DNA of 63,344 nucleotides, filler included, from Dirinaria sp. TL-2023a (taxonomy: Eukaryota), in NCBI GenBank assembly GCA_051941275.1. It is 5 parts of 5 records of this genome, joined end to end, with 100 filler letters (N's around TTAATTAATTAA, not from the genome) between each part and the next. Parts side by side here need not be neighbours in the genome. Positions count along the whole stretch, not along the records: positions 25,456 to 38,070 come from JAVEBF010000754.1; 4 more parts are not named here. One strand, written 5' to 3'. A program made the position numbers and the translations under genes. The notes beneath the pieces are model-generated. The model was not told where the DNA came from. It searched no databases and saw only the letters and a list, made by a program, of their open reading frames with translations. Shown in pieces: positions 4,714-42,915 of the stretch. Numbering within the stretch: position 1 is the stretch's first letter; each line of letters begins with the position of its first letter.

Positions 4714-6105
4714 ATGTCCTCAACTCCGTATGACATTTCGAACTTGGTGAAGACCATTAATGCCACAAGCAGCGAGGTAGGTAAAGACAATGGAGAGACA
4801 CGACGACAGTGCTTGGAAGCTGCGTACTCACTGTGCTATGCCTTGGAAACTCCCGTCGAGTCTATTCTCAGGAATGTCTGGGCTGAGGTAAGAAGATCCT
4901 TTCTTTCAAGAAAGTCGTCTTCGACTGACCACAGACTTTAAGCAAGGACATCATGCAGCAATACGCGTTGCAATCCGTCTAAAGCTGTTCGAGAAATTAG
5001 ATGAGAGGGATGGAGGTGTGAAGAGTTATGTCGAACTTGCGGAAATGACCGACTCAGACCCGATCCTTCTAGGTGAGTTGGCGCAGGCGTTTCTGACATA
5101 AGAGTCGTCTTCTGTGTTGTTTTCGCTGACGATCCCTGCAGGGCGTTTGTTGAAGCATTTAGCAGCCATGGGAACCATTTATGAGTCAGGGCCAAACGAA
5201 TACATTCCCACTCCTAAGTCAAAGGCGCTTAAGGAACCGATGTATCGAGATGCCTATCCAACATTGTCAGTACACGACACGCTTCGTCTCACTCTACCCC
5301 TTTCTTAAAAGCTTATGATAGAATTAGGTTCGATGTATGCGGCCCTTCTTTCTTGTCCTTGCCAGAATACCTTACCAGAACTCAATACAAGAACCCTGGC
5401 GACCCTAGCAATGGTGCATTCCAGTTTGGGCACGCTACAAAAGCTCACTTCTTCGAATGGGTGTCAGAGGACCCCGAACGCCTGACGTGGTTTCAGAATC
5501 ACATGGCTGGTTATCGTACCGGGCGTCCAAGTTGGATGGATCATGGCTTCTTCCCCGTCGAGGAGAATCTCGTCAAGGGCGCTAAGACGGAAGACGATGC
5601 CATATTCCTGGTAGATGTAGGCGGTGGAAAGGGTCATGACTTACAAGAGTTGCACCAAAAGCACCCCAATCTGCCAGGGAGGTTAATACTTCAAGATCTC
5701 AAAGATGTGATTCAAGAAGCAGAAGCATCTGGCCTTGATGAGAAAATTGTCGCTATGGGACACGACTTCTTCACTGAGCAGCCTGTCAAGGGTGCACGGG
5801 CATATTATATACACTCGTGCCTTCATGACTGGCCCGATGTCAAAGCGCGCGAGATTCTTAAGAGCCTAAAGCCTGGTTTGACCAGAGAGTATAGCAAGCT
5901 CTTGATCAATGAGAATGTTATACCAGATAAAGGCGCTGCTTGGTTGAGCACTGGATTGGATATGGTCATGATGGCAAACTTTTCGGCCGCTGAACGTACA
6001 GAGGAGAACTGGCGGGCACTTCTGGCATCGGCTGGCTTCAGAGTCATCCGGATTTGGACCTATGAACCCGGCACTGAGAGCTTGATCGAGGCAGAACTAG
6101 CTTGA
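4714..6105 (+). CDS. SAM-dependent O-methyltransferase (fungal secondary-metabolite, OmtA/COMT-like), 4 exons
   Basis: SAM motif LVDVGGGKGHDL, LILQDL, HDFF, and catalytic-region LHDWPD. The N-terminal LETPVES and dimerisation exons are linked by GT-AG introns (first donor at 4888). Confidence 0.92.
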
Positions 6106-8689: not shown

Positions 8690-11600
8690 TCATGAGATAA
8701 ACTCAATGGCAGTTTCTAAATGGTGATTCGTATCAGGTGCTTGCCGAGCTACAATATTCTGCCTGCCTTCACCACCTTTCTCAGGGAGTTCCCAGGATTC
8801 GAACTCATCGCCAAGTCCAGGGACCTCCCATTTCGACTCCCAGAATAGCTCCTTGGGCAATTTACTGGCTATTCTTATCTTTTCGCATGCCTCTTCATCA
8901 AGCCCATAGGTTCGCTGGACCAGCCATAATTTCGCCCATCTTAAAGTCGGAGGCGGTCCTTCGCCGCTGACGTCTAGCAGGATATCCAGTCTTGACGGTG
9001 AGTTCCACCAATCCGAGTCGGGCTGCCGCAACATGTCGTCCAAATGGATCAACAGTTCGTCTTCTTCTTTTCGGAATTCATCGACATTGTCCTCTGATAA
9101 TTTTTCGATTTCATACCCAGGAGACTCCGGTTTTATTGTGCAGCACGTGTGTTTCAAGTCCAGCTTGCTGAATGCGACGAACCTTTCAACCTCTTCCTTG
9201 ATCTTGTTTACCGGTATACCCTTGCCGGCTAGGACGTTGTACCAGTTGTACAAGATTGCTGAGACCTCGTAAAGTCGTAAGGAGTCTTGCAGGTAGAAAT
9301 CGCGCTGCCTGCTGGAAATGCCTGCCAACAATTTTGTTGTCGGGGTACATCCGTGGTGAGAGCAACCACAATGACAGCTATCCTGGCACTCAGGGGCGGC
9401 TTTTTGTAAAAAGTACAATAGCAATGGACTTAAAAGTCTCGGATACAGAGCGTCCATCTCTTCTAACACAGGATCAACCCATTGTGCTTTGACCAACTTA
9501 CCTGCAAAGCGCGATGTCAGGCTCTCCAGCTCATGTATCTCTATGCACTGTAGTTCGCTGGTGCCAAAAAATGCTGCGATATGTAGTATACTAATATCGT
9601 GGTCTCGACATTCTAGCAACGGGCTTGTGAGTTGAAGAAAATACCACTCTGCAAGGTCAAGCCGTTCTCTGATCTGTTGAAAATTGATTCTGCTGGCTTC
9701 CCTTTCTTTCAGCCAGGCTAGTTTCATGAGCGGCGTCATGCCATGTTGATCGTATTCGTTGAGGCCTCTAAACCCCACGTTGTAAAGACATATGGCAAGA
9801 TTTTTGGATCTCACTTCATGGTATACAGACACATCGCGGGTTTCTAGAGAAGGAGGAACTCTTATACCAGCCTTTTCTAGCTCAATCCAAGTATGAGATG
9901 CGCGTGTATCGTCAATGGCTGTTCCTAGTTGCTTAAGTTTGTCCAGAACCTTCGGTGCTAAAGATTTTGTAGCAAGCACGGCCAGATCCTCACGCCGGCG
10001 TTTCACGTGTTTTATTAAGCAAACTATGTTTGGTGCGAGAGGCCATTGGCTTGCACCCGCATATCCATGTGTCGCATCAAACCGTAAAGCAAGATCCAAA
10101 GTAGACTTCAGGCCGTATTTTTTGTCACGTGATGTAAGTGGGCTGCCAGCTTTGAGTAGTATCGAAGCAGCATTTGCACCATCTTGCATTGAAATGGTAT
10201 AATCTAGTGGTGACAAGTTGATCGAGTCCAGTTGGTCACAAGAAAACTCATTTTCTAGAAGAAGTTCTACTCCCCGCGCCCAATCACCACAAAGGTGAAG
10301 AGGAGTTTGACCAGCGACGTTTGACTCGTTGAGCACATCATGATTCCGGAGTTGGTATCGAACGAGGGTTTCCGATTTTTGAAGTACAGCCATGCTAAGA
10401 GGCCCACACCCCATAGTGTCTGAGATCAATTAAGCAAGATAAATTTAAAACAAAAGAAGTTGCTTCCTCACCTTCGGCGAATTCTTCACTCATTCTTAAA
10501 TTCTGAATCATGTTTCTTGCATATAACATTAGCCCATCAGGATTGGTGGGAGGTTTAACGTGCTCTGATGCCTTTGCTATGACCGTGGCACCAGACTCCA
10601 CTAGGGCCTTTCTTGCGGCCTCAAGTTCACCCTCGTCATAAACGTCTAGCGGCGAATATTTATCATCACCGAGACTGTATTGGAAGTACATGCCTAGCGG
10701 AGATCTAGTTTCATTAGCGATTACTCGTAAAAATTACCACGTAATTCTTTTACATACTGTCCAGAGAAGTCAACCGAATCGACATTTGTGCCCTCGTGCT
10801 TGAGAAACTTTATCAATTCCACAGCATGTGCGGGATCCCAATAAGCTTCAAACGCATGACGAACGACGATCTTTAAAAGTCAGTTGCTGTGCGAGACCAT
10901 GGGGATAATGTGGCCCACATGAACCAAACTTAGTCCATCCACGTCGATGTTAGATGGGTGTGCTTTGTGCTGTCTAAAAAGCTGCCATAATTCTTGTTTC
11001 ACTTCTTCTATACTTTCCTCATTAACAAGCGACCTCTCCAAGAGGCCAATTGCAGGGTTTTCGCTGGTCGCCACCGATATGATGTTTAGATCGGGGTTTA
11101 AAGAACAGCCACCAGCACCAGAGGACTTAAAAAAGCTGATGCGTACTGCTCGCCTGAGCAAGTACCACTGGAATGAAACTTGAAAGTTCCTATCAGGTGA
11201 TGCCCATATGCAGTCTTTCCGATGTCGGACCTTTACGGCAGTACCCTTACCTAGAAATCCATATGGCGAGCGCCATGTATTAATGAGTCTCTTTTGGCAT
11301 GAGCAGTGGAGAGCTGGCAGGCGTCTGCTGGTGGTGGGTGCTGCAATTTCATCTGGTCGCGAGTTTGTCGAGGGTACTCGGCTGACTGAGCTACTATTTT
11401 CACCGTCCTTGTCAGTCACAACTAAGCCTTGTTGACAAGCACTATCTAGTTCTTGGGCAAGCGCTGCAGGCTTCATCATCAGTTCTTGAAAGTGCACCAC
11501 CTTGACCTGCAGAAATTTAGCCGTGGTAATATAGCGTTTCGATATGTTACCATCAAGTCCCGCATCTCCTGCAGGATTTTTCCCATGTTTTCCATGCTAT

Positions 11601-12208
11601 TCCAATTTCTCGAGACATGATCTCCCGTTTCTACAGATCTATTACGAATTTGTAACGCACTTTCTTGAATCTGAGGTAGTTCTTGAGCGACAGAATTGAT
11701 TGCATGCTGCGCAGTTGCAATGTCGACGGTACGGGAACTATTTTGTAACCTAGGCTTACGTTAACTATTATCCCTCTAGCTTGGGTCTCATGGCAGAGAC
11801 GAACTGATTTTGGATCTGCAAAAACAACATCAGGGTACTCTTGTATCCTTCAATGTTCCTCATTAAGCCCTCAAATTCCCTCATTCCCAATTGCCCCTTG
11901 ATAGTACCCCATGCTTTTGTAAAGTTCTTACTATTAAATTTGGGAGCCAGAACCTGAAGCCGTTCGTCGAGCGCCCGAAGATCTGTCGTGCAATTTTGTA
12001 GAATATCTTGTAGAATAGGTTCATGGGTGGAATTCAGGACGTCGTTGGCCCGAATGATCTCGAGAATCAATTCTAGCTGCTTGGCTTGGGTATGAAAGCC
12101 GTGCACGACTCGAGGAACATCTTTGCGTTTGGACAACAGGTTGAGAGCCCCGACAGTGGAATTCAATAGTGTTATCGCTGAAACTAACAAACTGATAGGC
12201 TCCGCCAT
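8690..12208 (-). CDS. Protein with N-terminal HeLo-like/SesA-type domain, ankyrin repeats and a C-terminal Cys/His motif, about 6 exons, roughly 1000+ aa
   Basis: Exon 1 (MAEPISLLVSAITLL...LQNCTTDLRALDERL...AWGTIKG...IEGYKSTL) resembles fungal STAND N-terminal HeLo-like domains. Ankyrin-like GQTPLHL, LSPLDY and GMTPLM occur later, and the C-terminus has CHCGCSHHGCTP...HTCC. ORFs 11768..12208, 10880..11500, 10395..10691 and 8690..10429 splice in frame through GT-AG introns. Confidence 0.75.
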
Positions 12209-12628
12209 GTGCGAGACGCTAGGCAGATACCGGAAGCTTCGCTACGTGAGTGGACAAAAGCAGTGTATGAACGTCGAACTGGAAGCCTGGAAACTCGACA
12301 CTGTTTTGGACTTGAGCACAGAGGGGGTTTTGTAGCGGTCGGAGTACTGATTTGAAGGGTAAACTTATCACGCAAGGCGTTGGAGGTCTTCAAACAATGT
12401 ACATTATATTAGGCAGCCAGCTTCAGCCTTGTAAATGTACCTTTCCTGGCGCTAGAGATCAGCATCAGACTAAAAACGCTAAACTGGAAATGATCAACTT
12501 TACCACCCGACTGAAACAAGCATCTGCAAGCTGAACCAATTGCGAGCAGGTCGAGCCCAGGGGCCCCTCTCCTCGTTTTAACAAGCTCGGTCTCCAGATC
12601 TGCCCGTAAAGGGGATGGGGGGGGACTC

Positions 12629-22666: not shown

Positions 22667-24910
22667 TCAGCGGTAGGCCGGCCCACCGTATGGCTGCTGG
22701 TAGTCGTACCCGTTGCCCGGTACCCTTCCACCGTTCCGGTAGTAATCTTCCTCCGGAAGGTATGAGCCCCGAGTTGCCCCGTTCATGTCGACTACAGGTC
22801 GTTCGAACCGGGCGCGGGCGCCAGGGCTTTCTCCATAAAGACGTGCATCCTCGTCCGCTTGTCTACGGGCCCGCTCTCGAGCGAACCGACGGCCCTCGTC
22901 GTCCAATCCATCTTGGCCAGGAATAGAGCCAGGCTGGAATGTTGGTTGGTAGCCGCGAACATCACCGTCTGACCGACGGAAATCATCCCTTACCCTGGTA
23001 AAGGAAGGGCTGCGTCGGCGTTGCGCATTGCTTGGCTGTCGATGGTGGTGGATCTCTGGCTTGGGCATCTCCATCGGACCTCGCGGAACGTTGCTTGGTG
23101 GAATTGGCCTAGGTCTGGCTGTCGAGTCTGCGCGACCAGGTCTTCCAGCCACGGATTCTGATCGTCCCAGCGTGGAAGCATTGGACTCGGTACGAGGCTT
23201 TGGTGGCCCTCCGAACGGCGGTAAGTCGTCCTGATTTCTCGCATTGACGGGCTGAGAGCTGTAAGGCTTCCGCTCTCGCTCGATAGGTCCGGTCGAAGCA
23301 GGTGGTGGTGGTGGAAATGGATTGGTATCATCTATAGCCGACTCAGATGGTATGCTGGAATACGGCTTCCGCTCACGCTCGATATTATTAGGAGTATACG
23401 TAGACTCGGCGATGCTTGGGCGGTGGTGCGGTGGCGCCGGTATTGGATTTGTGTCATCGATCGCCGAATCCAGGTGAGCGCCGCCATAAGGTTTCCTCTC
23501 GCGCTCTAGATTATTCGGCGTGGGAGGTATCACTCCAACACTGGGCTTCTGAGTCGGATACGAAGGTACCGGCTCGTTCACACTGGGATTCGATCTTGGT
23601 TCATCGTGGCTAGTACGTCTCGGTAGGTCAATATTGGCATGCTCTGATATTGCGTTCTCCAGATCCTGCCGGATGCTATGGTCAGGGGCGCTGGGGAAGA
23701 GTCGGCGCGAAAGCTCTTTCGGGAATCGCTCTTTCTTCTCATCGGGATTATCGATTGGCATAGCTAACGCAGCTTTCGCAAGCCTCTCAAATTCCTCATC
23801 CGGATGGGCTTGTATTAGGAGGGTCGACCATCGCTCGAACCCGACTGGAGTGAGACCAGGAATTTCCGGGCGCACGTCGTGACTTTCTTGGACTAGGTGG
23901 TGCTGGCATGAAAGCTCTCTGAGCATTCGGGATATCCGACAGCGCTCATCGTCAAAGACAGCTACAGCAGCAAGTTAGTTACAGCATTGGCACATGTTAA
24001 ATAAGAGCACGTACTTGACCACGGATAAAGCTCATTTGGAAGCCGCACATCTTCGTAATACTTGGCCATCTTCGTTGGGGTGATCACGATGCTATGGCGT
24101 GGCTCATAATCCTCGATCTATGCCGCAGTCAGCAACCGTCATAACGCTCGCATGGCTGATCACGAGGCGTACAATGTGGACGGCAAGACCTCGCAAGAAT
24201 TGTCCCAGCCTTAAGGTCGGATGACCACCTTCGTCGAACAATTGCCCCCAAATCTTCTCGAGTGTGGTTTCCTCTGTTCCTGTTGACAATCTCTCCGGCC
24301 CTTTCGGTCTTATGCGACTCTCCTCGCTGCTATGGCTCAAAGGTGAGGATGACCGGGGATCTGGATACGAGTGAGGAGCCCTGTCACGTCCGGGACTCTG
24401 TGGAGGGTTGGCGAAGGGGGCAGATTGAGAATGCGGCGATCCTTGGCTGTGGAATTCGTGGTGCTTCTGCGGGGACGGAGGAGTGTAAACGCCCCGGGAA
24501 TGCATTGGTGGCGAGGAGCCCGACATGGTGGAGGGTGACAAGGGAACCGGTTGCTGGATCGGCGGCGGTGGGAACTGCCTGGGATTTTGTGGTACGGGTG
24601 TCCCGCTATCTTGGATGCCAGTTGTCTTCAATTGCTGAATGACATTTTGTGTTATCTGGGCCGTTATCTGGGCGATAAGCTCCGGCGACGCGTAGTTGTT
24701 GGAGGTGTCCGCTTTGTCGAAGGCTGAACTGACAGCCTCGTTAATCGGTTGCTGGGGGCGCAGGTATTGAGTATGATCCGCCATTCCTCCGTCGCTCTTC
24801 ACACTGAAGCTGTCTCGAGAGCGAGATTTCTTTGGCTCGAAATGAGCATGATCGGCGGAGTAGGACATGCGATCCTGGGTGTAATCGGGGTTGGCAGGTT
24901 CATATGCCAT
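22667..24910 (-). CDS. Conserved Pro-rich fungal protein with central globular domain (DUF7514-like), 3 exons
   Basis: ETTLEKIWGQLFDEGGHPTLRLGQFLRGLAVHI / IEDYEPRHSIVITPTKMAKYY / ...CQHHLVQ...IPGLTPVGFERW...ERFPKELSRRLFP, with three internal ERERKPY repeats. ORFs 24104..24925 and 22667..23926 are linked by two introns. Confidence 0.75.
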
Positions 24911-25355
24911 GGTCAGTCGCAACAAGGCTCAACGGCCTTGCTGTGGACACCGTACGACTCGCGCAGGTGGTTGTTTCGATGATTAGATCTGAATGGCGGA
25001 TTGCGTGGAGGACGTGCAGTGCGTGCAGTAGGAGTTGGAATGTGCGTCAAATCAGCGTCGGTCGCACGTCTTTAGCATATGCAACTTGTCCAAACCGACG
25101 TGAGGAGCAGGTCAGGTAGTGGGTGGTTGAACAGCGAAGCGACGAGGGGATTAGGCTATTTACGGCCTGGGCGGACGAAACATGTCAGAGAAAGAAGAAA
25201 AGCGGGCGAAGGAGCGCGGTAGGTTTTGTTTGGGGGGTAAGGTAGTTGAGTTCAGGAGGTCTCAGACTTCGGTTGCTCAATAACTACCTACCTTACTTAC
25301 ATTATTACCTTACTCAGCCCCCCATTTTTTTTTCGAGGCTGGCGGAGTGTTAAGG

Positions 25356-30199: not shown

Positions 30200-32473
30200 T
30201 CAAGCCATACCTTTAAATGCGCGTTCGAAACGCTCGGCGACAACCAATATCTCGGCGTCCATCCTGGATCCACCCAAAAATGTAACACTGAAAGGCAGCT
30301 CTCGCTTGTTACTAGCAGCCGATTCCGACGATTCTACGCACGTTCCTGCAGGCACAGCTATAGCGCATAGGTCCAGTACATTACCAAAATGGGTGAACTC
30401 TCCTAAGACACTATTTGTCTCAATAGGATTTCCAAGGACTTCTTCCACGGTCCAATGTTTCGGAGTTGTTGGCACAACGAGTACGTCCACACCACAGGCG
30501 CTGTACTCAAAAACTTTCTCGACCTGGCGGAGGTAGAGAGCTCTGGCTTGAAGATCTCGGTATATATCGACTGCAGAGCTTTTCCTCGCCACGACGTTGG
30601 AGAATATAGTCTCGATCACGGGGTGAAGACTACCCAGGTTTTGCTCGAGCCAATCGTCCGGTAGGCTGGCAAGCCGCTCGTACACGAAACTACCTTCGTA
30701 AAGGAGTTTACCGGCCTTTTCGAATGGTGCCCAGTCAATGAGTTGCAGCTGACCTCCCAATCGCTGGAGCATCTGCACGGAGTGGTTGAATTTGCTGCGA
30801 TAGCTAGGGCAGCAGATGGCAAGCGCCTCTGGTGGCGGGATGCCAAATTTAAAAGAGTTTGCTTGCGGTCCTAAAGAATTGACATGCCGCTGCAAAATGG
30901 GAGCGCACACTTTCGCGTATCGATCTGCTTCGTCGAATTGAACGCTCAGATTCCAGACGGTGCGTGCGTCCTCAACGCAGGTTGCAATGAGAGCGATGCA
31001 ATCTAGAGATAAGCAAGCTGGTGTAACACCATGGGCCGAGATCAAGCCTCGGGTCGGTTTGAAACCCACTACACCGTTGAATCCTGACGGCACCCGTCCT
31101 GATCCAGCAGTATCCGTAGCTAGTGAGAACGACACCAAGCCGGCGCCGACGCTCACACAGCTCCCACTTGAGGATCCTCCGGATATATGATCACGACTGA
31201 ACACAGATCGAGTAATGCCGTACGGGGAGCGGCAACCAGTAAGGCCTGTGGCCAATTGATCCAGATTAGTCTTGCCAACGAAGATTGCCCCTTGCGAAAT
31301 AATTGTCTGGTACGAACGCGCACTCAGAGACGGTATCTGCGCTAACGGCGGGCAAGCCGTTGTTGTCGGCAAGCCTGCAATGTCAATACTATCTTTGACA
31401 CTAAAGGGCACTCCAAACAAAGGGGGAAGTGCTTCACGATGTGGCCATTTGCTCTGCAGCTGTCTTGCCTGTTCTAGAACCGACTGCCGCGGCTCTCTAT
31501 AGATCCACACTGCAGGGTCGATCTCTGTATATTTCTCAATTCTACTCAAGGCCTCCTCCACGACAGTCACGGGCGATAGACCATGACGGTAGCTTTCCTG
31601 TAAATTTGCAATACCGAGGTCTCCGTTGAAAGAAGGAGGGGTGTGTGGAGGAGTCGTGCTAGCACAGGTATTTGTGGTTGAGATATACGGAGTAAGGCAC
31701 CTGATGAACGATTCCAATTTAGCTACGAAACCAAATAATCCTTGCGACCAATGTAACATCCGTAGTGAACAGCTTTTAAACTCCTCGTTATATCCAGCGG
31801 TGGCTTCTTCGATTCCGCCTTCACACGGATACTATCAGTCGCTGCCTTGTCTTACTGATAACATCAATTGAACAACACGGGAAGACTCACAGCACTCAAA
31901 CCCTCTGTCATTGGCTTCTCGAATAGTTGTCGCGAAACAGCATTCTGTCGTTACACCGCTCACAATAAGATGCGTAACAGATTTTGCTTTTAGCCTATCC
32001 ATCAAAGAGGTATTCCAAAAGGCGCCTTTGCCTGGCTTGTCAATTACGACCTCGCTCGGCCTTGGTTGCAACTCGTCGATTATGTCCTGCCCGTACTCTC
32101 CTCGTACGAGCAGCCGACCCATTTCGCCCTTCTCCCCGATCACTTTACAATGTCGCGATTCCCCTGGGGCTGCAGCTTGACGGTGTAGCTTTGAAGATGG
32201 GCAATCTGACAGGTCTGGCTTTTGACCCTCCCGAGTATGGAAGACAGCTAATCCAGCCTGCCGACAGGCGTTCAGAAGCCGCGCAGTGGGAGCGATCGAA
32301 GATTGTACGGCTTCAAGAGAGCCACCCTGAATCTGCCCGAAGCCTCCTTCCAGCAGGAAATCTCGTTGCATATCAATGACAAGCAATGCAGTCCTAGCGA
32401 AAGGGAATTGGAATTCATACGGCTCCGCCTCGACGGCGAGCATAGATGGACGACTCGATTTTTCAGAAATCAT
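30200..32473 (-). CDS. Fusion: isochorismatase-family cysteine hydrolase (triuret/biuret hydrolase-like) + amidase-signature allophanate hydrolase-like domain, 2 exons, 733 aa
   Basis: Exon 1 (32473..31891): ALLVIDMQRDF, HTREG, IDKPGKGAF, GVTTECC, REANDRGFEC. Intron 31890..31819 (GTGAGT...CTGAT...AAG) restores CGIEEATAGY...WSQGLFG in frame with the 519-aa ORF. That ORF carries VKDSID, GKTNLDQLATGLTGCRSPYG, GGSSSGS and TDTAGSGRVP. Confidence 0.88.
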
Positions 32474-32639
32474 ATTCGTGACCTCAGGTTGCCTACGATG
32501 CAGCGAAAAGTGCCTGCCGCCTCAATTCGTCGAAGAAATCGAGTATGAAAGGGACGATCTTTCACCCACCCAAGGAGCTGTAGCACAGGTGACTTGGAAA
32601 AGAAGACCGATTTCCGTAGGTCCCCTCATTCAGCCCCAG

Positions 32640-33030
32640 TTATCTCCACCATTGGTGCTTTGCCTGGTATGTCCATCTCGTAGATAGGCCCGACGGCCCC
32701 CGACGGCCGGCGGAGGCGCATTTTGCGGGGTCCGACTTGAGGCTCTACCAGCCCTCCCACCTGTAAACAGATTACGCTAATCTGGTCTAGACCCTACATC
32801 CCATCTAATCTGGCAGAATTGGGGACTTGCTGTATCCCAGGCCACACCACTATTCAGGACTGAAGAGCCTTATCAGCAAAGATTATTTACACGTACGGTC
32901 GCTGTCGCTGAATCTTAGAGACATATAACGCGGCGTCGGCACAGCCATAGCTATGGTTCACTATCGATGCTCTTATCCCTGGGATCTGGCCTCGGGCATC
33001 ATGTATATATATAGCGGAAAAGCTGCTATC
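32640..33030. promoter_or_regulatory. Divergent promoter with HGATAR sites, tandem CCGACGG elements and a TATA-like tract
   Basis: TTATCT at 32640, AGATAG at 32682, TTATCA at 32870; CCGACGGCC at 32690 and 32700; TATATATATA near 33004, upstream of the permease ATG at 33113. Confidence 0.5.
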
Positions 33031-33112
33031 ATAGGAGTGACTTCGAATACAAACAACCTGGCCTTACTGCTTCTTCTACTATTGCTCCCTTGACCATTCT
33101 TTTGGCCCGAAG

Positions 33113-34916
33113 ATGTCGTTCCTATCTTCCAATCGTCTGAAGGCCCGGATCGCGCCTCACCTGCGTGCACGGGTCCCATATGAGGCAGGCATCTACGCAA
33201 ACAGCCCACGCTGGTCAAATAAAGGTTAAATGCGTTCGCACTGCCATGCGAGCTCTTGCTGACGTTTTCATGTTCCAGATCTTGATCCAGTGCCTGTGCA
33301 TATGAGGACATGGGGTGGCATCGTAAATTAAGCCTTATTTGATGACGCTGATTTGTGGTATTGGACTGGCTAACGTCGCGACAGGATTATTGGGCTTACT
33401 GGACATCCGACATGCTCGCGCCGCCGCTCGCAAGTACTGTGTCCTCCGTCATGGCCCTAGGATTCGCAGCGAGGGAAACGATTCCGATCGTCTTCTTTGG
33501 ATTCGCGATCTGTAGTGTGGTCATCACACTCACAGGGAAGATGGGTGCTCAGTATAGTGTCGCGTTCCCAGTCATCGTTCGCTCAATCTTCGGGATGTAC
33601 GGTTCCTATCCTGCCATCTGCATCAGAGCCTTCGTTGCCGCTATGTGGACTGCAATCCTATGCGTTCAAGCCGGTGGATTTCTGCAAAATTGTATCGAAG
33701 CAATCTGGCCTAGCTTCAAAAGATTTCCCAATCACCTAGCCCCTGATGCAGGTATCACATCAGCCGGCATGTTATGTTTCTTCCTTTACTGGATATTCCA
33801 AACGATATTGGCAACAATGCCCATTCAAAAGCTAAGGATCTTGTTCCTCGTCAAAGCAGTCATCGTTCCTCCGACGTTTGCAGCTCTGTTCCTGTGGGGT
33901 GTCGTTGTGACCAAGGGCGGGGGCCCTCTGGTAACAGGCCAAGCCAAGATGACAAGCCCCTACATGAATACTGCTTTCTCGGCATTGACTGGTCTGAATG
34001 CTATAATCGGACTCTTCTCCTCTATGGCTGTCAACATGCCAGACTTTGGCAGGTTCTCAAAGAATGGTCTTGCAGGGTACCATCAATTCTTCGCTTTACC
34101 GGTCATTGGGACCTTAGGTGCTCTTACACCAATCTTTGTTACGTCAGCCCACAGCTACATCTGGGGCGAATTCCAGTGGTACATGCCTGCTGTCATCGAA
34201 AACTTCGACAGTCGGGCAGCTCAGTTCTTTACCGCTTTCTCCTTCATGCTCGCCACTATCGGCAACCAAATCGCAGCGGGCACCTATCCCTTCAGCAATG
34301 ATGTGTCGGGGCTTTGTCCCAAATACATCAACATCTTTCGCGCTACTGTGATTATATCTGTATTTTGCGTTGTCTGTACGCCGTGGAACATCATCAAGAA
34401 TGCTGCTGGCCTGCTCGCTTTCCTGTCTGGTTACTCCTGCTTGATGGGGCCTTTGGCCGGCGTTATGGTCAGCGACTTCTATCTTGTCAAGAAGCGGAAG
34501 CTTGATGTCCATGAACTCTACAAAGATCATGGTATCTACTACTACAGCTACGGCGTGAATTGGAGAGCCTTCGCTGCATTCGGGATCGCTTTCGCGCCAC
34601 TCGTTCCTGGATTCGCCAAGTCCATTAATAATAATTTGGCAGTCGGAGGAGCTTGGAAGGTAATGTTCGGCCTTGGTATGGAGAACTTTATATGGCCTGG
34701 CTAATCAAGCGACAGATTTATACCTTCGCCTGGCTGTTCGGCTTCTTCATTGCCCTTCTGAGCTACTACATCATCTGCACTTACATCTCGCCAATCACTG
34801 GCGCTTTAGTCGAGAACGCAGTCCTTCCACCGCAGAGGGGAGATGCCAGTCCAAGTATCGAGAGTGTGTACGAGACCAAAAATGGTATGCAGGCGGAGAC
34901 GAAGGAGGTAGTGTAA
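33113..34916 (+). CDS. NCS1-family nucleobase/allantoin permease (Fur4/Dal4-like), 4 exons
   Basis: Hand-read exons MSFLSS...RWSNK-DLDPVPVHMRTWGGI-DYWAYW; FPVIVRSIFGMYG, NMPDFGRF, PWNI, FLSGYSCLMGPLAGVMVSDFY, GVNWRA; final exon IYTFAWLFGF...; about 12 TM segments. Confidence 0.92.
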
Positions 34917-35738: not shown

Positions 35739-37828
35739 ATGTCTTATACCCTAAGTCCAGGTCCTCCAGTTGTTGAGCAGAGAATAACCAAGGGTCGTCC
35801 TTGCGACGCGTGCAGGAGGCGCAAAAGCCGGTGCGTTCTCACTCGAATCGCAGAGAAGTGTGTCCTTTGTAATTTTCACAACCAAGACTGCACCTTCACT
35901 GAGGCAATCCCGTCACGGAAGAGAAAGTCTGTCAGTCTTGAGAACGAAGGCGGAAGGTGACCCAGGATCGCTCCTATTATGCATTAGATTTTTGACGATC
36001 TTTTAGCAAAAAGAAGATCGTTGAACCCTTGCGTACAACACTTTCAGACAGGCACGTTTCTCTGGACAATCCAGAGCTTCCAGTCGAGGATTACGCGCAG
36101 CTCAAAGGCCCGTCCTTGTTAAAAAAAACCCTTGGCCTACAGCGACGACACCATGGGCTCTTCATTGGCTCCAGCGGAAGATTCGAGCCAGCGCTAATGG
36201 TTGCCGACAGTGCTTTCGGTCCGAAAGCATTGGTTCATGAGATTTCCTTTCGACATGTTAACGACAATAATATATTTATGCTAGCGTGCGACCAAGCAAC
36301 CAAGCTTTTTGACGCTGAACAGGACGACCTTGATGCTATCGAGCGTCTTATAGCTCCACATGGAAAAGCATTGATTCATTTGTATTTTCGCATTGTTCAT
36401 CCCAGCTTTCCCATCCTTCATAAAGATGTTTTCTTAGAGAAATATGAACGTACTTATCGCGAGTTCTCGCCCGTGCTTCTGGCTGCGGTCTACATACTAG
36501 CAATAGAGTTTTGGAGCTACAGCTCAGAGCTTACCGGCCATGCTACGCCCGACATCGATGCGTTAGAGATCATAGCTTCCAGATCTATGAGTTATGCGAT
36601 TCATCGCTCCAAGTTGTCGACAGTGGAAGCCGGCCTTCTTCTTCTACAAAGATCGAGTGAGTCTTCCTGGCCGCTCACAGCCCAGATGGTAGCCGTCAGT
36701 CAGGATTTGGGCTTACATCGTGATTGCTCGAACTGGAACATCCCGGAATGGGAGAAGGGTCTACGAAAACGCTTGTCTTGGGCAGTAATCATGCAGGATA
36801 AGTGGGCAGCCCTAGTGCACGGTAGGCCATCGCACATCTACCGATCAGACTGGAGTGTAGGACCTCTATCAGACCAGGACTTCCCAGAGACATTTGCCGA
36901 CGAGAACGACGAAGAAGGTAGTACTGAGGTGGAAACTGGACGAGCAATCTTCATGTATATGGTATCCTTAACTCAGATTCTTTCAGATATCTTGACCTCT
37001 TGCTACTCCGGAGCGGCTGAGGCAGATGTCATCGAAGACCAAGCCCAGGCAACCGCTCTTGTTCTCACACGAGCAAAGCCACTGCAAATCAGGTTGAAAG
37101 AGTGGTATGCGTCATTTCCTCAATGCTTGAGCATGGAAAATGTCAAAGCCAGGAAGCTTTCTTCAACTGGCTCCTTGCACTTGGCTTATTGGGCTGCCGA
37201 GCTTAGCCTCCACAGGTGCATCATCCGAACTTTAGGTGACTGCACAGATCCAAATGTCGTCAGAATATGTCAGCACGCCGCTCTGATCCGATCCGCTTCG
37301 GCCATGGATGTTGTGAAAGCGTTACGGCCAGAGCATTGGTCCAGTTTCTGGTACTTCGCATCTGAGTTCAACTTTGGCCTTATTGGGCTGTTTCGGGTGT
37401 TGCTCGCTACCTCTCTCGCGACAGCAGATGATATAACCGTCAGTATGGACAGTCTAGATCAATACACGTGGACGCTGAAGATGTCCCAAAAGAACGTCCG
37501 ATTTCTGCACAAATCCATTGCTATGATAGATCATGGTGTCAGGAACCTAAGATTACGCTTTCTGAACAAGAAACTCGATGAACGCGACGCACGTCGGCAG
37601 GCCTTGACCAAGCGTTCAACATATATCTCTGAAAGTCCCAGTTATTCTACCGAAAATAGTCACGAAGCATTAGCTTCGCTTGGTTCCCTGGACCCCAATA
37701 TTACGGCAAATGATATTGCGCAAAATCCTGAAGGCAGTAGCTTTTTCTTTGACACGAGTCCTATGTCTGAGGACTACCTTGGTAGCTATTCGCAGCAGGT
37801 AGATGGGACCTATACATCTTATATATGA
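35739..37828 (+). CDS. Zn(II)2Cys6 transcription factor, Dal81/TamA-like, 2 exons
   Basis: CDACRRRKSRC...CVLCNFHNQDC binuclear cluster; VEDYAQLKGPSLLKKTLGLQ, LYFRIVHPSFPILHK and LGLHRDCSNWNIPEWEKGLRKRLSWA in the fungal TF domain; intron from about 35958 to 36007. Confidence 0.88.
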
Positions 37829-39144: not shown

Positions 39145-40673
39145 CTAAGCGTTGGTTTGGTAGCCAGAATAGCGATCGTCTTCCAGTAGCGGATTTCTAC
39201 TCTTTGCCTGATCTACTGCATGCTCCCAATTTGTGGTAAGCAGGAAGTAGCCCTCGGTGACAGCGATCCTACCTCCAGCGTTAACGGAGCTGTGATTGAC
39301 TGATTATTGACACGGGTCGACTCACAATGCGGCAGCAATAGATGGGCCAGCCCAAAGGCCCAAAAGGTCCCAGTGAAGCCAGAACCCGGCGAAAAGCGCG
39401 ATGGGCAGTCCAATCTGAAAAAAAAAAAAAAAAAAAAAATATTAGCTAGGTCTGATCCCTCAAAGCACAGAGGTATGCTTACGATATAAAAGCACAATAG
39501 TGCGATATACCCACCAACGTCCTGTCTTCCAATACCTCTCAGTAGTCCATTGCACATACCCGCAAGAGAGTCACATATCTGAAAACCCGCTATCAAGGGA
39601 AGAGTGCCTGTGATGAGTCGCGCAACTTCGACGTCAGCCGTGAATAGAAGCGGAATGTAATCTTTCAAGGAGGCGAAAAAAATTGTGATGAACGAGCCCA
39701 GAAGTACGGCAGCGAGAATTGCTACCTTTGCCGACAATTGCGCGCTGGCAGAGGAGCCCGCTCCTATCAGATTAGCAACTCGTGTCGAGGCTGCGATGCC
39801 AAGAGTCGTAGGGAGCTGCGATGCCATGGTTGCCATAGTCATGAGAACGCTTTGGGCCGCTAGGTGGACTGAGTCGAGGTAACTAGCACTAAGTGTAAGG
39901 AGCTCGAAAGCCAGCCATTCAGCTTCGATCATTAAAAAACCAGGGAGTGCCAATTTCAACATTGGGCTCCAATGATGGAATGCAGAGTAAGAAAGCCCGT
40001 TCCAACATTCTCTACCATCAATAAATCGAACATAGATTGCAAGACCTATTGGGAGAAGGTCTTCAGTGATGGCGACAGCGAATGGAGCCCCAACAAAACC
40101 CCAAGCAAACTTCCATACGAACAGCCATTGAAGAAGAGCGTTGAAGGGCGCCAGGACGAGAAGAACGTAAAGATTTGCAGTGAAGAGCCCTTGCGCCTGT
40201 ACGAAGCGCTTTCCACTTTCAAAAGCAGCCCAGCCCGGAGCTCCAATGAGAAGGACTCTCAGGTAAAGAGCGGCAAGCTCGACCGTCTCTGGCTTCGGAA
40301 CGATGGTTCCAAGTATTTGACGACTGAAGAGCCACATGAGTCCGATGGGAACGGTTACCGCCCATAAGAGGTACACCATTCTTTGGCAATGCATTCCGAC
40401 CATTTGCTTATGACCCGAGCCATAAGCTTGAGCGCAAAGCGTGTCAAGGCTTGTTGCCAAGCCTTGATAGACTGCATACGCTGTTATGTTAGCGGTGGCG
40501 CTTCCAAGACTGACGGCACCCAACTCAATCGTGCCCAAATGGCCGACTGTGAAGACACTCGCCATCGGAAAAGAGTACTGCAGGACCGATGCAAGAATTA
40601 TGGGCCATGAATACCTGGCCAAGACCTTCGCTTCATGCTTGGGGGTTGTTTCAGTATCAATAGTCCCCGTCAT
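39145..40673 (-). CDS. MATE-family efflux transporter (Erc1-like), at least 3 exons; start uncertain
   Basis: VGHLGTIELGAVSLG, GLATSLDTLCAQAYGSG, EWLAFE, STRVANLIGAG and GLLRGIGRQ; two 3' introns give IGLPIALF...GLWAG and LIAVTEG...TNA*. Upstream exons may exist. Confidence 0.9.
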
Positions 40674-42915
40674 TTTCACCTAACAGCTTTCATCTGCAAT
40701 GACGGTCGGGTTTTAATCTGGTAGAGAGAAGGGATCGGGATACTTCACAGTCGCACGTGAGCTTCAATGGAGAAGTAGATGGATAGTAGCTAGAGAAAAC
40801 AATCTGTGGCGACGAGAGAATCTGCTGGTTCATAGCGCCAGGGAACGACCGACGTAATGTGATCAATGCAATAGACCAGGAACGCACCGTAGATCGGGGT
40901 ACAGAATTGAGTACGTATCTTCGACGTTAGGGCTTGACTGATCTTAATATAATCCATTGATGATCGTCACTCGGCCAGATTAGCCATTTCAATACTGGCA
41001 GCCAGCCAGGTGTGTGGACGTCATCAAATGGTCCACAAGCGGCAGGCGCCTGGTTCATTGAGTGTGGGATTGAGTCTTTGATTTGATCCGATCGAAGTAA
41101 CCCTGATAGTAGGAGTGACTGTATGGACGGACATGTTCGGAGCGATGTCAACCCAATTTACCCTTCGGGACTTGGGCGAGAGATCCTTCGTTACACGGGA
41201 AAAGTGAGATTTTCCAAACTTGATAGAATTTTTGAAGCTGTTCGATGAGATCGGGGATTGACGTTGGAATACCAGCTCTTTGTGGACCGTAAAGTGCTGC
41301 ACAGTAAGTGAACTTATGTACCTTAAGGTGCTTTATGAACAACTTCTCTGAGCCTGCATTAAAGCATTTCCGATCGCGGACCGAAATGGGTCCCTCGGTT
41401 TCTTGCCGATGATCGCTTGACGAATCGTTCCCTTCGATTGGTTCATGTTGTCTGCTTCATGTACCCTGAAAGGCTGAACCTAAATATTGCGGTCCGAGTC
41501 CTTTTAACTTTGGATCGCAAATGCCGCCGGATCTGAATCGAGCTTCTCTATTCGCTGCCACATTGTACATTCAGGTACGGAGTATTATAAGTAACTGGGT
41601 CTTCGACTCCCGTCCCGTCGCTTACCTGCACATACTCTAGCAAAGTGCATCGTCTTGATGGTAAGTCACGTCAGAGAGTCTGCTATGCCACCTCCGGCTA
41701 TTTCGACTCTTGTTGTTGATGGACTTAGCTAGGACGTCCACTACCGATGGCGCGGGTGCTCGGTCGCTATTCGAACGATTCGCTCATTGGATTTAGGGTT
41801 CCATTTCGAAAAACTGCAGGTAATCAGCGGAACCGCAGTTCAGCCTCTTAGGCGCTCAGTCTTGGTTTATCCGTTAAACAAGAAGAAAAAAAAAAAAAAA
41901 ATCATTATTTTAACCATCTCATGGATAGACTGAACGCCTTGAGTCGCAAATCCAGTATCGAGTCAAAAAGCTGGACCTGAACTGTGGGTGATTTGCGGCT
42001 AGGGTAGGGTCGTGGTTAGGGTTGTAGAAAGTACCTTAGCTCCATCAGCTCTCACATAACGCTCTAAAAGGTGTCCCAACACCACCGAAACATTCGCACA
42101 AAAATTACCAAGAGAATGCCGATATTCCCTTGGTAATGCTCGATCGTATATGTCGCTTATCCACCTGGCGTCTTTCTGAACATCGTGGATATCTGGCGAG
42201 TCAATCTCTAGCGCCTACTTTTGCCAAGAGTCAACATCAGCATTGGTTGAGGGGTTAGTCACCTTCCAGATGATCTGGCTAGACCAGTACTTGTTGAATG
42301 TCTTGTGACGCGATCGAGATTGATTCGATACGGATATCTATATCAGTCCCATGGTTACCTTAAATTTTCACTAAGCGATTAGGCTTAGCAGGGGTAGGTC
42401 CGGGAGGACGGGGTTGCCCACGATTAGACGAATCGACGATAGACAAAGTTGAAAGGCATATGGCCACGGATTTTCCAGCATAAGGTAAGGTACATACAGT
42501 AGCAAGTATAAAGTAAGGTAAGGTAGCTAGCCACATGTACTTCACGGGCTATTTTTCTCCATGTGTATAACCCAATGAGACAAACAAACCAAGGTAGGTA
42601 CCTACTCTACACTAGGTAACGTGCTTTATTTGCTCAAATATTGTACCTCCCCTCATAGCCCAACAAAATCCAGCAGCCTCGACCTACTTTACCTTACCTT
42701 ACATCTTCGCTAGTAATCGTTTTCTTTCCGATACTTCCTCAAGTTCTCCCAAACAGTTCTTCACTTTTGTACCAACTCTTTTCATCCGTCAGTCCAAGCT
42801 GTAAGCTGCAAATACTATATACAAAAACATCTTTGCTGTCCACTGCCGACTTCAGCCTTCATCTCTTATCTACTTTTCAGCCAGACACGTATCACTGCTA
42901 TCCCGACTTAGCACG

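What the first reader, a model, noticed from the sequence alone, without database searches (positions are those of the whole stretch)
30200..32473. Spliced fusion of a TrtA-like cysteine hydrolase to an allophanate-hydrolase-like amidase
Seen: the ORF track shows two ORFs, but a 72-nt intron (31890..31819) fuses them into one 733-aa chain, and exon 2 supplies the missing end of the hydrolase fold. Both catalytic sets look intact: Asp (IDMQ), Lys (DKPGK) and Cys (TTECC), plus the amidase Lys/Ser/Ser. From my recollection of the families, GGFG, DLSDCP, TTE and AGY resemble triuret hydrolase TrtA more than biuret hydrolase BiuH (GGYV, TTD, GAT), while Q in GQIQG, the CC pair and WSQGLFG deviate from both. 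The amidase lacks the C-terminal domain and the urea-carboxylase part found in Dur1,2. No separate BiuH is in the cluster. Inference: either the hydrolase has a new specificity or the amidase handles a labile intermediate (carboxybiuret or allophanate), possibly by channelling.
Basis: partly seen in the sequence, partly recalled or inferred. Interest (0 to 1): 0.75.

Follow-up and report, generated by a model that had tools for sequence, protein, structure and literature searches.

The report
Fused fungal ureide-degrading double hydrolase
A lichen-fungus gene, spliced from two exons, joins a triuret/biuret-type cysteine hydrolase to an allophanate-type amidase in one protein that probably strips ammonia from small urea-like compounds; the fusion is real and untested at the bench, but it is common in fungi and already annotated.

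Summary
A 72-nt GT-AG intron (31890..31819, minus strand) joins two ORFs into one 733-aa protein. A GenBank model from Dirinaria sp. uses the same junction. Both catalytic sets are intact.

The N-domain sits on the TrtA side of the TrtA/BiuH split (98/99 support). It forms its own fungal clade, which keeps F35, E160 and Y187 but has lost N41 and Q202, residues that are invariant in the bacterial TrtA-like proteins examined.

The amidase domain is allophanate-hydrolase-like: it has the triad and the Tyr/Arg pair, and TM 0.90-0.91 to the AtzF and Granulibacter AH (GbAH) structures. It lacks the AH C-domain.

- The fusion is widespread in Ascomycota and Basidiomycota and already carries automatic annotation.
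- It is syntenic with an NCS1 permease, which here is transcribed divergently 639 bp away.

Best reading: a bifunctional enzyme that, with its permease, mineralises a short linear ureide (biuret and/or triuret type) via allophanate. The exact substrate is unknown, channelling is untested, and I found no biochemical study. It is a new variant of a known kind, of moderate interest.

The parts
30200..32473 (-). Whole gene: two exons, 733-aa fusion protein. Alternative start at 32443 gives the 723-aa GenBank model.
31891..32473 (-). Exon 1: residues 1-194 plus the first base of codon 195. Most of the isochorismatase-like cysteine hydrolase domain.
31819..31890 (-). 72-nt phase-1 intron: GTGAGT...CTGAT...AG, with in-frame TGA and TAG.
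30200..31818 (-). Exon 2: end of the hydrolase fold, linker, amidase domain, stop TGA at 30202..30200.
31697..31818 (-). Exon-2 part of the hydrolase domain (residues 195-235). Holds Tyr204 (TrtA Y187 position) and the WSQGLFG helix (TrtA Q202/I205 region).
32372..32374 (-). Asp34 codon (IDMQ), hydrolase triad.
32036..32038 (-). Lys146 codon (DKPGK), hydrolase triad.
31937..31939 (-). Cys179 codon, the second Cys of TTECC. Aligns with the TrtA Cys162 nucleophile.
31622..31687 (-). Linker (about residues 239-260, TPPHTPPSFNGDL). Lowest-confidence stretch of the model.
30203..31621 (-). Amidase-signature domain of allophanate-hydrolase type (residues 261-733). No AH C-domain.
31394..31396 (-). 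Lys336 codon (SVKD), amidase triad.
31172..31174 (-). Ser410 codon (GGSSSGS), the cis-Ser of the triad.
31100..31102 (-). Ser434 codon (TDTAGS), the amidase nucleophile. Aligns with Ser177 of the K. lactis AH.
30674..30700 (-). Tyr568...Arg576 (YEGSFVYER), the Tyr/Arg pair specific to allophanate hydrolases.
32474..33112 (.). 639-bp divergent intergenic region shared with the permease gene.
33113..34910 (+). NCS1 (Fur-type) permease gene, at least three exons. Conserved neighbour of the fusion gene across fungi.
35996..37825 (+). ORF with a fungal-specific transcription factor domain. Possible regulator; its linkage to the pair was not tested.

Best explanation
One spliced gene encodes a bifunctional ureide amidohydrolase.

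Step 1 (inferred). The N-terminal Cys-Asp-Lys hydrolase, from the TrtA side of the TrtA/BiuH family, removes the terminal amide nitrogen of a short linear carbamoyl compound, most likely biuret and/or triuret. The product is an N-carboxylated ureide: allophanate, or carboxybiuret that decays to biuret and is processed again.

Step 2 (inferred). The C-terminal Ser-cisSer-Lys amidase, which keeps the allophanate-hydrolase Tyr/Arg pair, deaminates allophanate. With no AH C-domain, the product falls apart to CO2 and NH3 on its own.

Partner (inferred). The divergently transcribed NCS1 permease imports the substrate.

Why fuse (inferred). Fusion gives 1:1 co-expression and proximity, so the labile carboxylated intermediate is consumed before it decarboxylates.

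Shown here: gene structure, domain identity, intact catalytic residues, clade placement, synteny. Inferred: substrates, order of reactions, role of the permease, and any channelling.
For: Splice junction: identical to an independent GenBank model and conserved in homologues.

N-domain similarity: TrtA 6XIX E 1.1e-58, ahead of the generalist Rhodococcus BiuH (RhdBiuH) 6XJM 1.5e-51, BiuH 6AZO 9e-47 and RutB 2.9e-22.

IQ-TREE, 58 rows: fused clade 100/99; fused plus 24 TrtA-like rows 100/94; whole TrtA side 98/99. Holding fused and BiuH-like rows together costs 19.9 lnL, p-AU 0.03.

Hydrolase residues in 145 fused proteins: triad D 145/145, K 143/145, C 143/145; F35 145/145; E160 143/145.

Amidase: AtzF 4CP8 E 1.4e-96, GbAH 1.6e-93; fold TM 0.90-0.91. 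Lys/Ser/Ser plus the Tyr/Arg pair are present in 14 of 16 fused rows and 30 of 30 bacterial AHs; the Tyr/Arg pair is in 0 of 10 other amidases from the same loci.

A C-domain-free AtzF fragment keeps amidase activity (PMC3944691, abstract seen in the listing).

In bacteria the nearest relatives sit with the same partner. Of 80 loci, 30 have an AH-type amidase within 7 kb, 18 of them without a BiuH-like gene. Eleven of the 30 amidases are short (436-473 aa); Pfam, run on two of them, found no AH_C. They include overlapping amidase-hydrolase pairs (L017, L018, L056, L060, L075) and one in the fungal order (L074).

Permease and fusion genes have consecutive locus tags in 6 species. They share a contig length in 13 more, including two Basidiomycota.

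AlphaFold2 on 41 homologues: pLDDT 85.2, pTM 0.87 for the whole two-domain chain.
Against: No assay exists; substrate and order of steps are inferred.

The fused clade lacks residues that are invariant in all 82 bacterial TrtA-like proteins examined. Position 41 is G in 142 and S in 3 of 145, never N. Position 202 is S 108, Y 16, Q 13, F 6, A 2. Position 205 is L rather than I or V. Position 161 is C rather than V. A variable polar residue (Q 69, D 37, E 30, N 9) sits at 203.

In TrtA and BiuH these positions bind the distal end of the substrate and gate the tunnel. TrtA N41Y and Q202E each keep under 10% activity (PMC7948467 passages). BiuH Q215A and Q215E raise Km more than 25-fold (PMC5806882 passages). 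The pocket may therefore fit another ureide.

The protein scores 214.8 bits on NCBIfam's BiuH equivalog (cut-off 370). That is below the TrtA orthologue (247.8) and true BiuH (427.8).

A TrtA-type product (carboxybiuret) is not the AH substrate, and no BiuH lies in the window.

In K. lactis urea amidolyase, a fused AH does not channel allophanate (PMC5770610 passages).

The bacterial set is the 80 best matches to exon 1, so sampling is biased towards TrtA-like proteins.
Confidence: 0.55

Rival explanations
1. Same two-step chemistry, different natural substrate. The remodelled distal pocket (G41, C161, S202, Q/D/E/N203, L205) binds another acyl- or carbamoyl-urea, for example formylurea or acetylurea, oxalurate-like or malonurate-like compounds, guanylurea-like compounds, or a ring-opened purine or pyrimidine product. 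Neither biuret nor triuret is the physiological substrate.
For: Loss of N41 and Q202, which are invariant in bacterial TrtA-like proteins, and a variable polar residue at 203. The fused clade is a separate, long-stemmed branch. The partner is a Fur-type NCS1 permease that sources name uracil or allantoin permease. Some bacterial TrtA-like genes sit in other ureide contexts: AllH, FdrA, DUF1116 and carbamate kinase on E. coli plasmids, and allFGHK and codB in nitrifiers (PMC12625717 passages).
Against: The proximal pocket and F35, E160 and Y187 stay TrtA-like. The amidase keeps the allophanate-type Tyr/Arg pair, which calls for an allophanate-sized carboxylated product. Permease names are automatic.
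Confidence: 0.25
2. The N-domain is a true triuret hydrolase, and the amidase deaminates 1-carboxybiuret (an AtzE-like reaction) as well as allophanate. The fusion alone would then mineralise triuret without BiuH or a decarboxylase.
For: TrtA-side phylogeny. No BiuH in the window. 18 of 80 bacterial loci pair a canonical TrtA-like gene with an AH-type amidase and no BiuH-like gene within 7 kb, 14 of them with at least 6 kb of flank on both sides. Carboxybiuret lasts about 20 min (PMC7948467 section 4), so capture would pay.
Against: The amidase is far closer to AH than to AtzE (455.6 against 156 bits) and keeps the AH Tyr/Arg spacing. BiuH may lie elsewhere in these genomes. The TrtA specificity residues N41 and Q202 are missing.
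Confidence: 0.12
3. The two domains are fused but work independently, or one of them is a non-catalytic module.
For: Two of 16 fused representatives (P0135, P0144) have lost the amidase triad. The linker is predicted with low confidence.
Against: In the window's protein, and in about 140 of 145 relatives, both catalytic sets are conserved. The same two families are operon partners in bacteria.
Confidence: 0.05
4. There is no splicing: two separate proteins, a truncated hydrolase and an amidase starting at an internal Met.
For: Both ORFs are open on their own. No transcript data were available.
Against: ORF 1 alone lacks the last helices of the fold, including the Y187 and Q202 region. The first Met of ORF 2 lies inside that fold. 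Canonical splice signals are present, and the junction is conserved across all 41 aligned full-length homologues.
Confidence: 0.02

Closest known systems
TrtA, triuret hydrolase of Herbaspirillum sp. BH-1 (PDB 6XIX/6XJE; PMC7948467)
   Same: Best solved-structure match of the N-domain. Same triad. F35, E160, Y187 and A134 are as in TrtA. Same side of the tree.
   Different: N41 becomes G, Q202 becomes S with Gln one position later, I205 becomes L, V161 becomes C. There is a 7-residue loop insertion. The domain is fused to an amidase and is eukaryotic with an intron. No BiuH partner lies nearby.
BiuH, biuret hydrolase of Rhizobium leguminosarum (PDB 6AZO; PMC5806882)
   Same: Same fold and triad. 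Its product, allophanate, is what the fused amidase looks built for.
   Different: None of the BiuH signature residues differing from TrtA (Y35, Y41, D160, T187, V205) nor the Q202 shared with TrtA is present. 214.8 bits against a cut-off of 370. Separate clade.
Allophanate hydrolases AtzF (4CP8) and Granulibacter AH (4GYR/4GYS)
   Same: 39-40% identity, TM 0.90-0.91. Triad and Tyr/Arg pair.
   Different: No C-terminal AH_C domain. Scores just under both NCBIfam cut-offs (455.6 of 487; 422.9 of 511). Branches outside the sampled bacterial AH clade.
Fungal urea amidolyase Dur1,2 (K. lactis 5I8I/4ISS)
   Same: A fungal protein in which an AH amidase is fused to the enzyme that makes allophanate.
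   Different: The upstream enzyme there is an ATP- and biotin-dependent urea carboxylase and the AH has its C-domain. Similarity is lower (E 1.4e-70). Allophanate is not channelled there.
Bacterial trtA-like plus short AH gene pairs (e.g. L017 Nocardia, L056 Mycolicibacterium, L074 proteobacterial MAG)
   Same: The same two families next to each other, a 457-473-aa amidase (no AH_C found in the two scanned with Pfam, L017 and L074), and no BiuH-like gene within 7 kb.
   Different: Separate genes, usually amidase first. The hydrolase keeps the full TrtA signature. None of the 80 loci has a fusion.
AtzE, 1-carboxybiuret hydrolase (6C62)
   Same: An amidase-signature enzyme acting on a carboxylated ureide.
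   Different: 156 bits against a cut-off of 461. E 1.3e-25 against 1e-96 for AtzF.

Membership tests
TrtA (triuret hydrolase) | Asp-Lys-Cys triad of isochorismatase-like hydrolases | tested here: met
   D34, K146 and C179 align with D24, K129 and C162.
TrtA (triuret hydrolase) | Branches with TrtA rather than BiuH | tested here: met
   TrtA-side clade 98/99. AU p 0.03 against a BiuH grouping, tested post hoc. It is a sister or unresolved branch (56/60), not nested among characterised TrtA.
TrtA (triuret hydrolase) | TrtA consensus at F35, N41, A134, E160, Y187, Q202, I205 (PMC7948467) | tested here: not met
   F35, A134, E160 and Y187 are present. N41 is G, Q202 is S, I205 is L. The same holds across 145 fused proteins.
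TrtA (triuret hydrolase) | Specific hydrolysis of triuret to carboxybiuret | not testable with these tools
   Needs an enzyme assay.
BiuH (biuret amidohydrolase) | NCBIfam NF050097 equivalog cut-off of 370 bits | tested here: not met
   214.8 bits. Control true BiuH scores 427.8.
BiuH (biuret amidohydrolase) | BiuH consensus Y35, Y41, D160, T187, Q202, V205 | tested here: not met
   0 of 6 present.
Allophanate hydrolase (AtzF/AH) | Ser-cisSer-Lys triad of the amidase signature family | tested here: met
   K336, S410, S434.
Allophanate hydrolase (AtzF/AH) | Tyr/Arg pair 8 residues apart. I recall it as Tyr299/Arg307 of the Granulibacter enzyme, which binds the allophanate carboxylate; the source was not held. 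| tested here: met
   Y568 and R576. The pair is in 30 of 30 bacterial AHs and 0 of 10 other amidases. Its role is recalled, not read.
Allophanate hydrolase (AtzF/AH) | Curated full-length score (PRK08186 487; TIGR02713 511) | tested here: not met
   455.6 and 422.9 bits. Only profile positions 7-449 of 600 are matched.
Allophanate hydrolase (AtzF/AH) | C-terminal AH_C domain (PF21986) | tested here: not met
   Absent from P0003 and from the window. Control L063 AH has it.
Allophanate hydrolase (AtzF/AH) | Fold of the AH amidase domain | tested here: met
   TM 0.90-0.91 to 4CP8 and 4GYS, rmsd 2.0-3.2.
Urea amidolyase (Dur1,2) | Biotin carboxylase, carboxyltransferase and BCCP domains | tested here: not met
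   Only the Isochorismatase and Amidase Pfam domains are found.
AtzE (1-carboxybiuret hydrolase) | NCBIfam PRK09201 cut-off of 461 bits | tested here: not met
   156 bits.
RutB (ureidoacrylate amidohydrolase) | TIGR03614 cut-off of 378 bits | tested here: not met
   90 bits.

The most novel reading that the evidence does not exclude
The fungal fusion and its conserved permease form an ancient module, spanning Ascomycota and Basidiomycota, for a natural ureide that no characterised TrtA or BiuH handles. Alternatively, it mineralises triuret on its own: the AH-like domain takes carboxybiuret as well as allophanate, and the remodelled tunnel gate (S202, Q203, L205, C161) hands the labile product to the amidase. 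Either way it would point to a physiological source of such ureides in fungi, for example oxidised urate.
Probability: 0.2. Interest if true: 0.7.

Novelty: new variant of a known kind. Interest (0 to 1): 0.45.

Why it matters
Triuret and biuret catabolism is described biochemically only in bacteria, with separate enzymes, and the natural origin of these compounds is unsettled (PMC7948467). A fusion of the first and last enzymes, conserved across fungi and linked to a dedicated permease, argues that fungi meet such ureides in nature. It also supplies a compact two-gene system (transporter plus enzyme) in which substrate, pathway order and channelling can be tested directly. The altered specificity residues offer a natural experiment on what separates triuret, biuret and other ureide hydrolases. 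On the practical side, many database names for this family (GatA, urea amidolyase-like) look wrong.

Tried and rejected
Complex prediction, N-domain (1-228) against amidase domain (250-723), both cut from alignment A2: no verdict (scores 0.02 and 0.10, mark 0.32; controls not run). It says nothing either way about domain contact.

Taxa of the unnamed representatives P0124, P0126, P0135, P0144, of the tandem proteins (P0145, P0147, P0148, P0228) and of P0179 stay unknown.

Papers not held: Aukema 2020, Lin 2016, Robinson 2018. The TrtA supplement could not be read. These may mention fungal or fused homologues.

Searches for a study of the fusion found none. Strope 2011 (PMC3073912, passages) mentions stand-alone fungal amidases but has no occurrence of 'isochorismat'.

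The window's permease has no tblastn match in the 82 bacterial loci, so permease linkage is not shared at sequence level with bacteria.

HGATAR (GATA-factor) sites: 6 in the 938 bp between the ORFs against 2.5 expected, reached by 6.4% of sliding windows. Not significant.

I assumed the 117-aa 'allophanate hydrolase' next to Rhizobium TrtA was an AH_C domain. Pfam says Cupin_7, so I dropped the idea.

No bacterial fusion was found among the 80 loci.

A recent bacterial origin is rejected as unsupported: the fused clades lie outside the sampled bacterial clades. No fungal Dur1,2 AH sequence was in the amidase tree.

treekit failed to load twice and then worked.

No fungal genome collection was on hand, so synteny rests on locus tags and contig lengths.
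Full report
WHAT IS THERE

The minus strand between 30200 and 32473 holds two ORFs. The sequence between them has a canonical fungal intron:
- GTGAGT at 31890
- a CTGAT branch-like site at 31838-31834
- AG at 31820-31819
- length 72 nt, phase 1

Read through, the frame meets TGA and TAG. Spliced, it reads ...RGFEC-C-GIEEATAGY... and gives 733 aa from the first ATG.

NCBI protein Q9191_005123 of Dirinaria sp. TL-2023a (P0003, 723 aa) is identical and uses this junction, starting at the second Met. Homologues carry about 10 residues before that Met, so the upstream ATG is at least as likely.

Exon 1 alone matches Pfam Isochorismatase positions 1-141 of 175. The spliced protein matches 1-164.

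Related contigs show the same break. Of 24 ORF-style amidase-only predictions, 17 begin with unrelated residues and then GG[IV]EEAT, 4 have a variant of the motif, and 3 start further downstream. Of 7 short or partial predictions looked at, 5 run on from RGFECC into residues unrelated to exon 2 (one for a single residue).

THE TWO DOMAINS

N-domain, solved-structure matches:

| Structure | E-value |
|---|---|
| TrtA 6XIX | 1.1e-58 |
| Rhodococcus generalist BiuH (RhdBiuH) 6XJM | 1.5e-51 |
| Rhizobium BiuH 6AZO | 9e-47 |
| RutB | 2.9e-22 |

Amidase domain (residues 261-733):
- Best matches are the AtzF amidase domain (1.4e-96), Granulibacter AH (GbAH; 1.6e-93) and K. lactis AH (1.4e-70).
- An AlphaFold2 model built on 41 fused homologues (pLDDT 85.2, pTM 0.87) superposes on 4CP8 and 4GYS with TM 0.90-0.91.
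- NCBIfam AH profiles are matched only over positions 7-449 of 600. Scores (455.6 and 422.9) fall just under the cut-offs.
- Pfam finds no AH_C domain.
- tblastn of the whole window finds no second TrtA/BiuH, no AtzD, no AH_C and no other AH.
- I scanned 43 of the 73 ORFs of at least 120 aa with Pfam, leaving out overlapping shorter frames.

PLACING THE HYDROLASE

Reference sequences. From a Rhizobium plasmid (L001) I took a true BiuH (531.7 bits to 6AZO) and the TrtA orthologue (281.6 bits to 6XIX). A scan of one genome per bacterial and archaeal species gave the 80 best relatives of exon 1 with flanks.

Trees:
- A FastTree of 142 rows used 18 fused N-domains chosen from those then in hand, 10 domains of 5 tandem proteins, 82 best-hit bacterial genes and 32 second copies; one 168-aa fragment was dropped.
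- A careful IQ-TREE of 58 of those rows agrees with it. The fused proteins are one clade (100/99). That clade joins 24 TrtA-like rows (100/94). With two further rows it forms the TrtA side (98/99). BiuH-like rows lie outside.
- Whether the fused clade is sister to the bacterial TrtA-like proteins or nested within them is open (56/60).
- Forcing fused and BiuH-like rows together costs 19.9 lnL, p-AU 0.03. This group was named after the tree was seen.

Caveat: the bacterial sample was picked by similarity to the query.

SIGNATURE RESIDUES (TrtA numbering)

The TrtA paper names F35, N41, A134, E160, Y187 and I205 as the positions that differ from the BiuH consensus. It names Q202, from the neighbouring subunit, as the key determinant (PMC7948467 passages).

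| Position | 82 bacterial TrtA-like genes | 26 BiuH-like genes | 145 fused fungal proteins |
|---|---|---|---|
| 35 | F | Y | F 145 |
| 41 | N | Y | G 142, S 3 |
| 160 | E | D | E 143 |
| 161 | V | V | C 142 |
| 187 | Y | T | Y 85, F 60 |
| 202 | Q | Q | S 108, Y 16, Q 13, F 6, A 2 |
| 203 | G | G | Q 69, D 37, E 30, N 9 |
| 205 | I | V | L 145 |

Notes on the table:
- The TrtA-like pattern is nearly invariant. Exceptions: E160 80 of 82, Y187 80 of 82, G203 80 of 82, I205 81 of 82.
- For the BiuH-like count, two basal second copies (L047, L078) and four RutB-like ones were set aside.
- The 145 fused proteins are all stored proteins of 640-1300 aa that carry D.Q.DF and GGSS.G.
- In the fused set the triad is kept: D 145, K 143, C 143.
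- The flanking anchors (F191, L196, M198-L199, G204, G207) align without gaps, so the one-residue shift of the Gln is real in sequence.

In BiuH, Gln215 binds the amide distal to the nucleophile, and Q215A and Q215E raise Km more than 25-fold. Val218 and Gln215 gate the substrate tunnel, and Val174 lines the pocket (PMC5806882 passages).

So the fused clade keeps the catalytic and proximal pocket of TrtA and has rebuilt the distal pocket and gate. On NCBIfam's BiuH model it scores 214.8, against 247.8-279.8 for TrtA-like proteins and 427.8 for true BiuH, with a cut-off of 370.

THE AMIDASE

Lys336, Ser410 and Ser434 align with the AH triad. Ser177 is the nucleophile in the K. lactis enzyme (PMC5770610 passages).

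A Tyr and an Arg eight residues apart (Y568, R576) are distributed as follows:
- present in 30 of 30 bacterial AHs next to TrtA-like genes
- Tyr in 20 and Arg in 21 of 21 unnamed AH-like representatives
- both in 14 of 16 fused rows
- both in 0 of 10 other amidases from the same loci

I recall this pair as the allophanate-binding residues of the Granulibacter enzyme. That paper was not held, so the role is recalled.

In the amidase tree (78 rows, FastTree) the fused domains lie outside a 49-row bacterial AH clade (100). Short and long AHs are mixed within that clade. No fungal Dur1,2 sequence was included.

A C-domain-free AtzF fragment keeps amidase activity (PMC3944691, abstract in the listing).

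CONTEXT

In bacteria (80 loci):

| Neighbours within 7 kb | Loci |
|---|---|
| BiuH-like second copy (12 of these also have an AH) | 27 |
| AH but no BiuH-like gene (14 of these have at least 6 kb on both sides) | 18 |
| Neither (17 of these on truncated flanks) | 35 |

- Eleven of the 30 AHs are 436-473 aa. Pfam, run on two of them (L017, L074), found no AH_C.
- In Nocardia, Antrihabitans, Mycolicibacterium and Mycobacterium the short amidase is immediately upstream of the hydrolase gene, with a few bases of overlap in most.
- In L074 the order is hydrolase then amidase, as in the fungus.
- None of the 80 loci has a fusion.

In the window, an NCS1 permease gene lies head to head, 639 bp from the fusion gene's ATG (33113-34910, at least three exons). 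A fungal transcription-factor ORF follows it.

Permease orthologues (73-92% identity) and fusion orthologues have consecutive locus tags in six species:
- Caloplaca
- Rusavskia
- Letrouitia
- Capronia
- Elasticomyces
- a Pleosporales species

They also share a contig length in 13 further species. These include Melanomma (53.9 kb) and the basidiomycetes Violaceomyces (44 kb) and Meredithblackwellia.

DISTRIBUTION

- Of the 120 best relatives of exon 2, 46 carry both Pfam domains. The other 74 are amidase-only predictions of 466-591 aa.
- All 120 best relatives of the most divergent fused representative carry both domains. They span Dothideo-, Lecanoro-, Eurotio-, Sordario-, Leotio-, Orbilio- and Pezizomycetes, and Basidiomycota.
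- The Atlas cluster has 110 members, all eukaryotic, commonest phylum Ascomycota.
- Names given by sources vary: 'amidase signature enzyme', 'allophanate hydrolase', 'GatA', 'urea amidolyase-like'.

HOW IT MOST LIKELY WORKS

The conserved proximal pocket says the hydrolase still attacks a terminal carbamoyl amide. The AH-type Tyr/Arg pair says the amidase still takes an allophanate-sized carboxylated ureide.

The simplest pathway is biuret to allophanate to CO2 and NH3. Triuret would enter if the N-domain is a generalist. A natural generalist exists (RhdBiuH; PMC7948467 section 11).

Fusion would keep the two activities in a 1:1 ratio and close together, which helps with intermediates that decarboxylate on their own. 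Carboxybiuret has a half-life of about 20 min (section 4). True channelling is unproven. It was excluded for the AH of K. lactis urea amidolyase.

Because the distal pocket is rebuilt, a different natural ureide is a serious rival. Confidences: main reading 0.55, other ureide 0.25, amidase also acting on carboxybiuret 0.12.

NOVELTY

The pathway enzymes are known, and the TrtA paper notes trtA in some fungi (section 17). The fused architecture is already in databases.

I found no paper that describes or tests the fusion. Two relevant papers and one supplement could not be read.

What is new here is threefold: the fungal enzymes form a distinct subfamily with altered specificity residues, they are fused to a C-domain-less AH, and they are tied to a conserved permease. 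Verdict: a new variant of a known kind, interest about 0.45.

Noticed in passing
P0145, P0147, P0148, P0228, P0179 (representatives): Proteins with two isochorismatase domains in tandem. In P0148 and P0179 the first domain is BiuH-like and the second TrtA-like, and P0179 also has an N-terminal AH_C domain. In P0145 and P0147 the first domain has lost the catalytic Asp and Cys. Taxa unknown.
   Followed up: partly
L002 (E. coli IncF plasmid NZ_CP134354.1) 5983-12642: A TrtA-like cysteine hydrolase, 55% identical to exon 1, sits next to AllH (DUF2877), FdrA, DUF1116, carbamate kinase and a cytosine permease. 84 E. coli plasmid records match. This looks like an oxalurate or ureide cluster, not a triuret operon.
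   Followed up: partly
P0135 and P0144 (fused representatives): A fused subclade whose amidase domain has lost the Lys/Ser/Ser triad (QYAG... and SYNS... at those columns) while the hydrolase triad is kept. Possibly a pseudo-amidase module.
   Followed up: partly
L001 9662-10015 (Rhizobium plasmid CP050083.1): The 117-aa gene after the TrtA orthologue is annotated 'allophanate hydrolase' but is a Cupin_7 protein by Pfam. It may be the decarboxylase that other papers call TrtB; not tested.
   Followed up: partly
P0137 (701 aa): The nearest non-fused relative of the window's amidase domain carries an N-terminal GNAT acetyltransferase domain instead of the hydrolase.
   Followed up: no
window 35996-37825 (+) and 39216-40679 (-): A fungal-specific transcription factor ORF and a MATE transporter ORF lie just beyond the permease. 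Whether they belong to the module is unknown.
   Followed up: no
window 5233-6102 (+), 61891-62874 (+), 1720-2154 (-): An O-methyltransferase, a cytochrome P450 fragment and a fungal rhodopsin-domain ORF. These are ordinary fungal genes unrelated to the finding.
   Followed up: no
window 8693-12241 (-) and 22670-24928 (-): An ankyrin-repeat ORF with a SesA/PigL_N-like N-terminal ORF nearby, and two ORFs with DUF7514.
   Followed up: no
window 32640-33026: Five HGATAR (GATA-factor) sites lie in the 639-bp divergent promoter. The count is 6 in the 938 bp between the ORFs against 2.5 expected, reached by 6.4% of windows. Suggestive of nitrogen control at most.
   Followed up: partly
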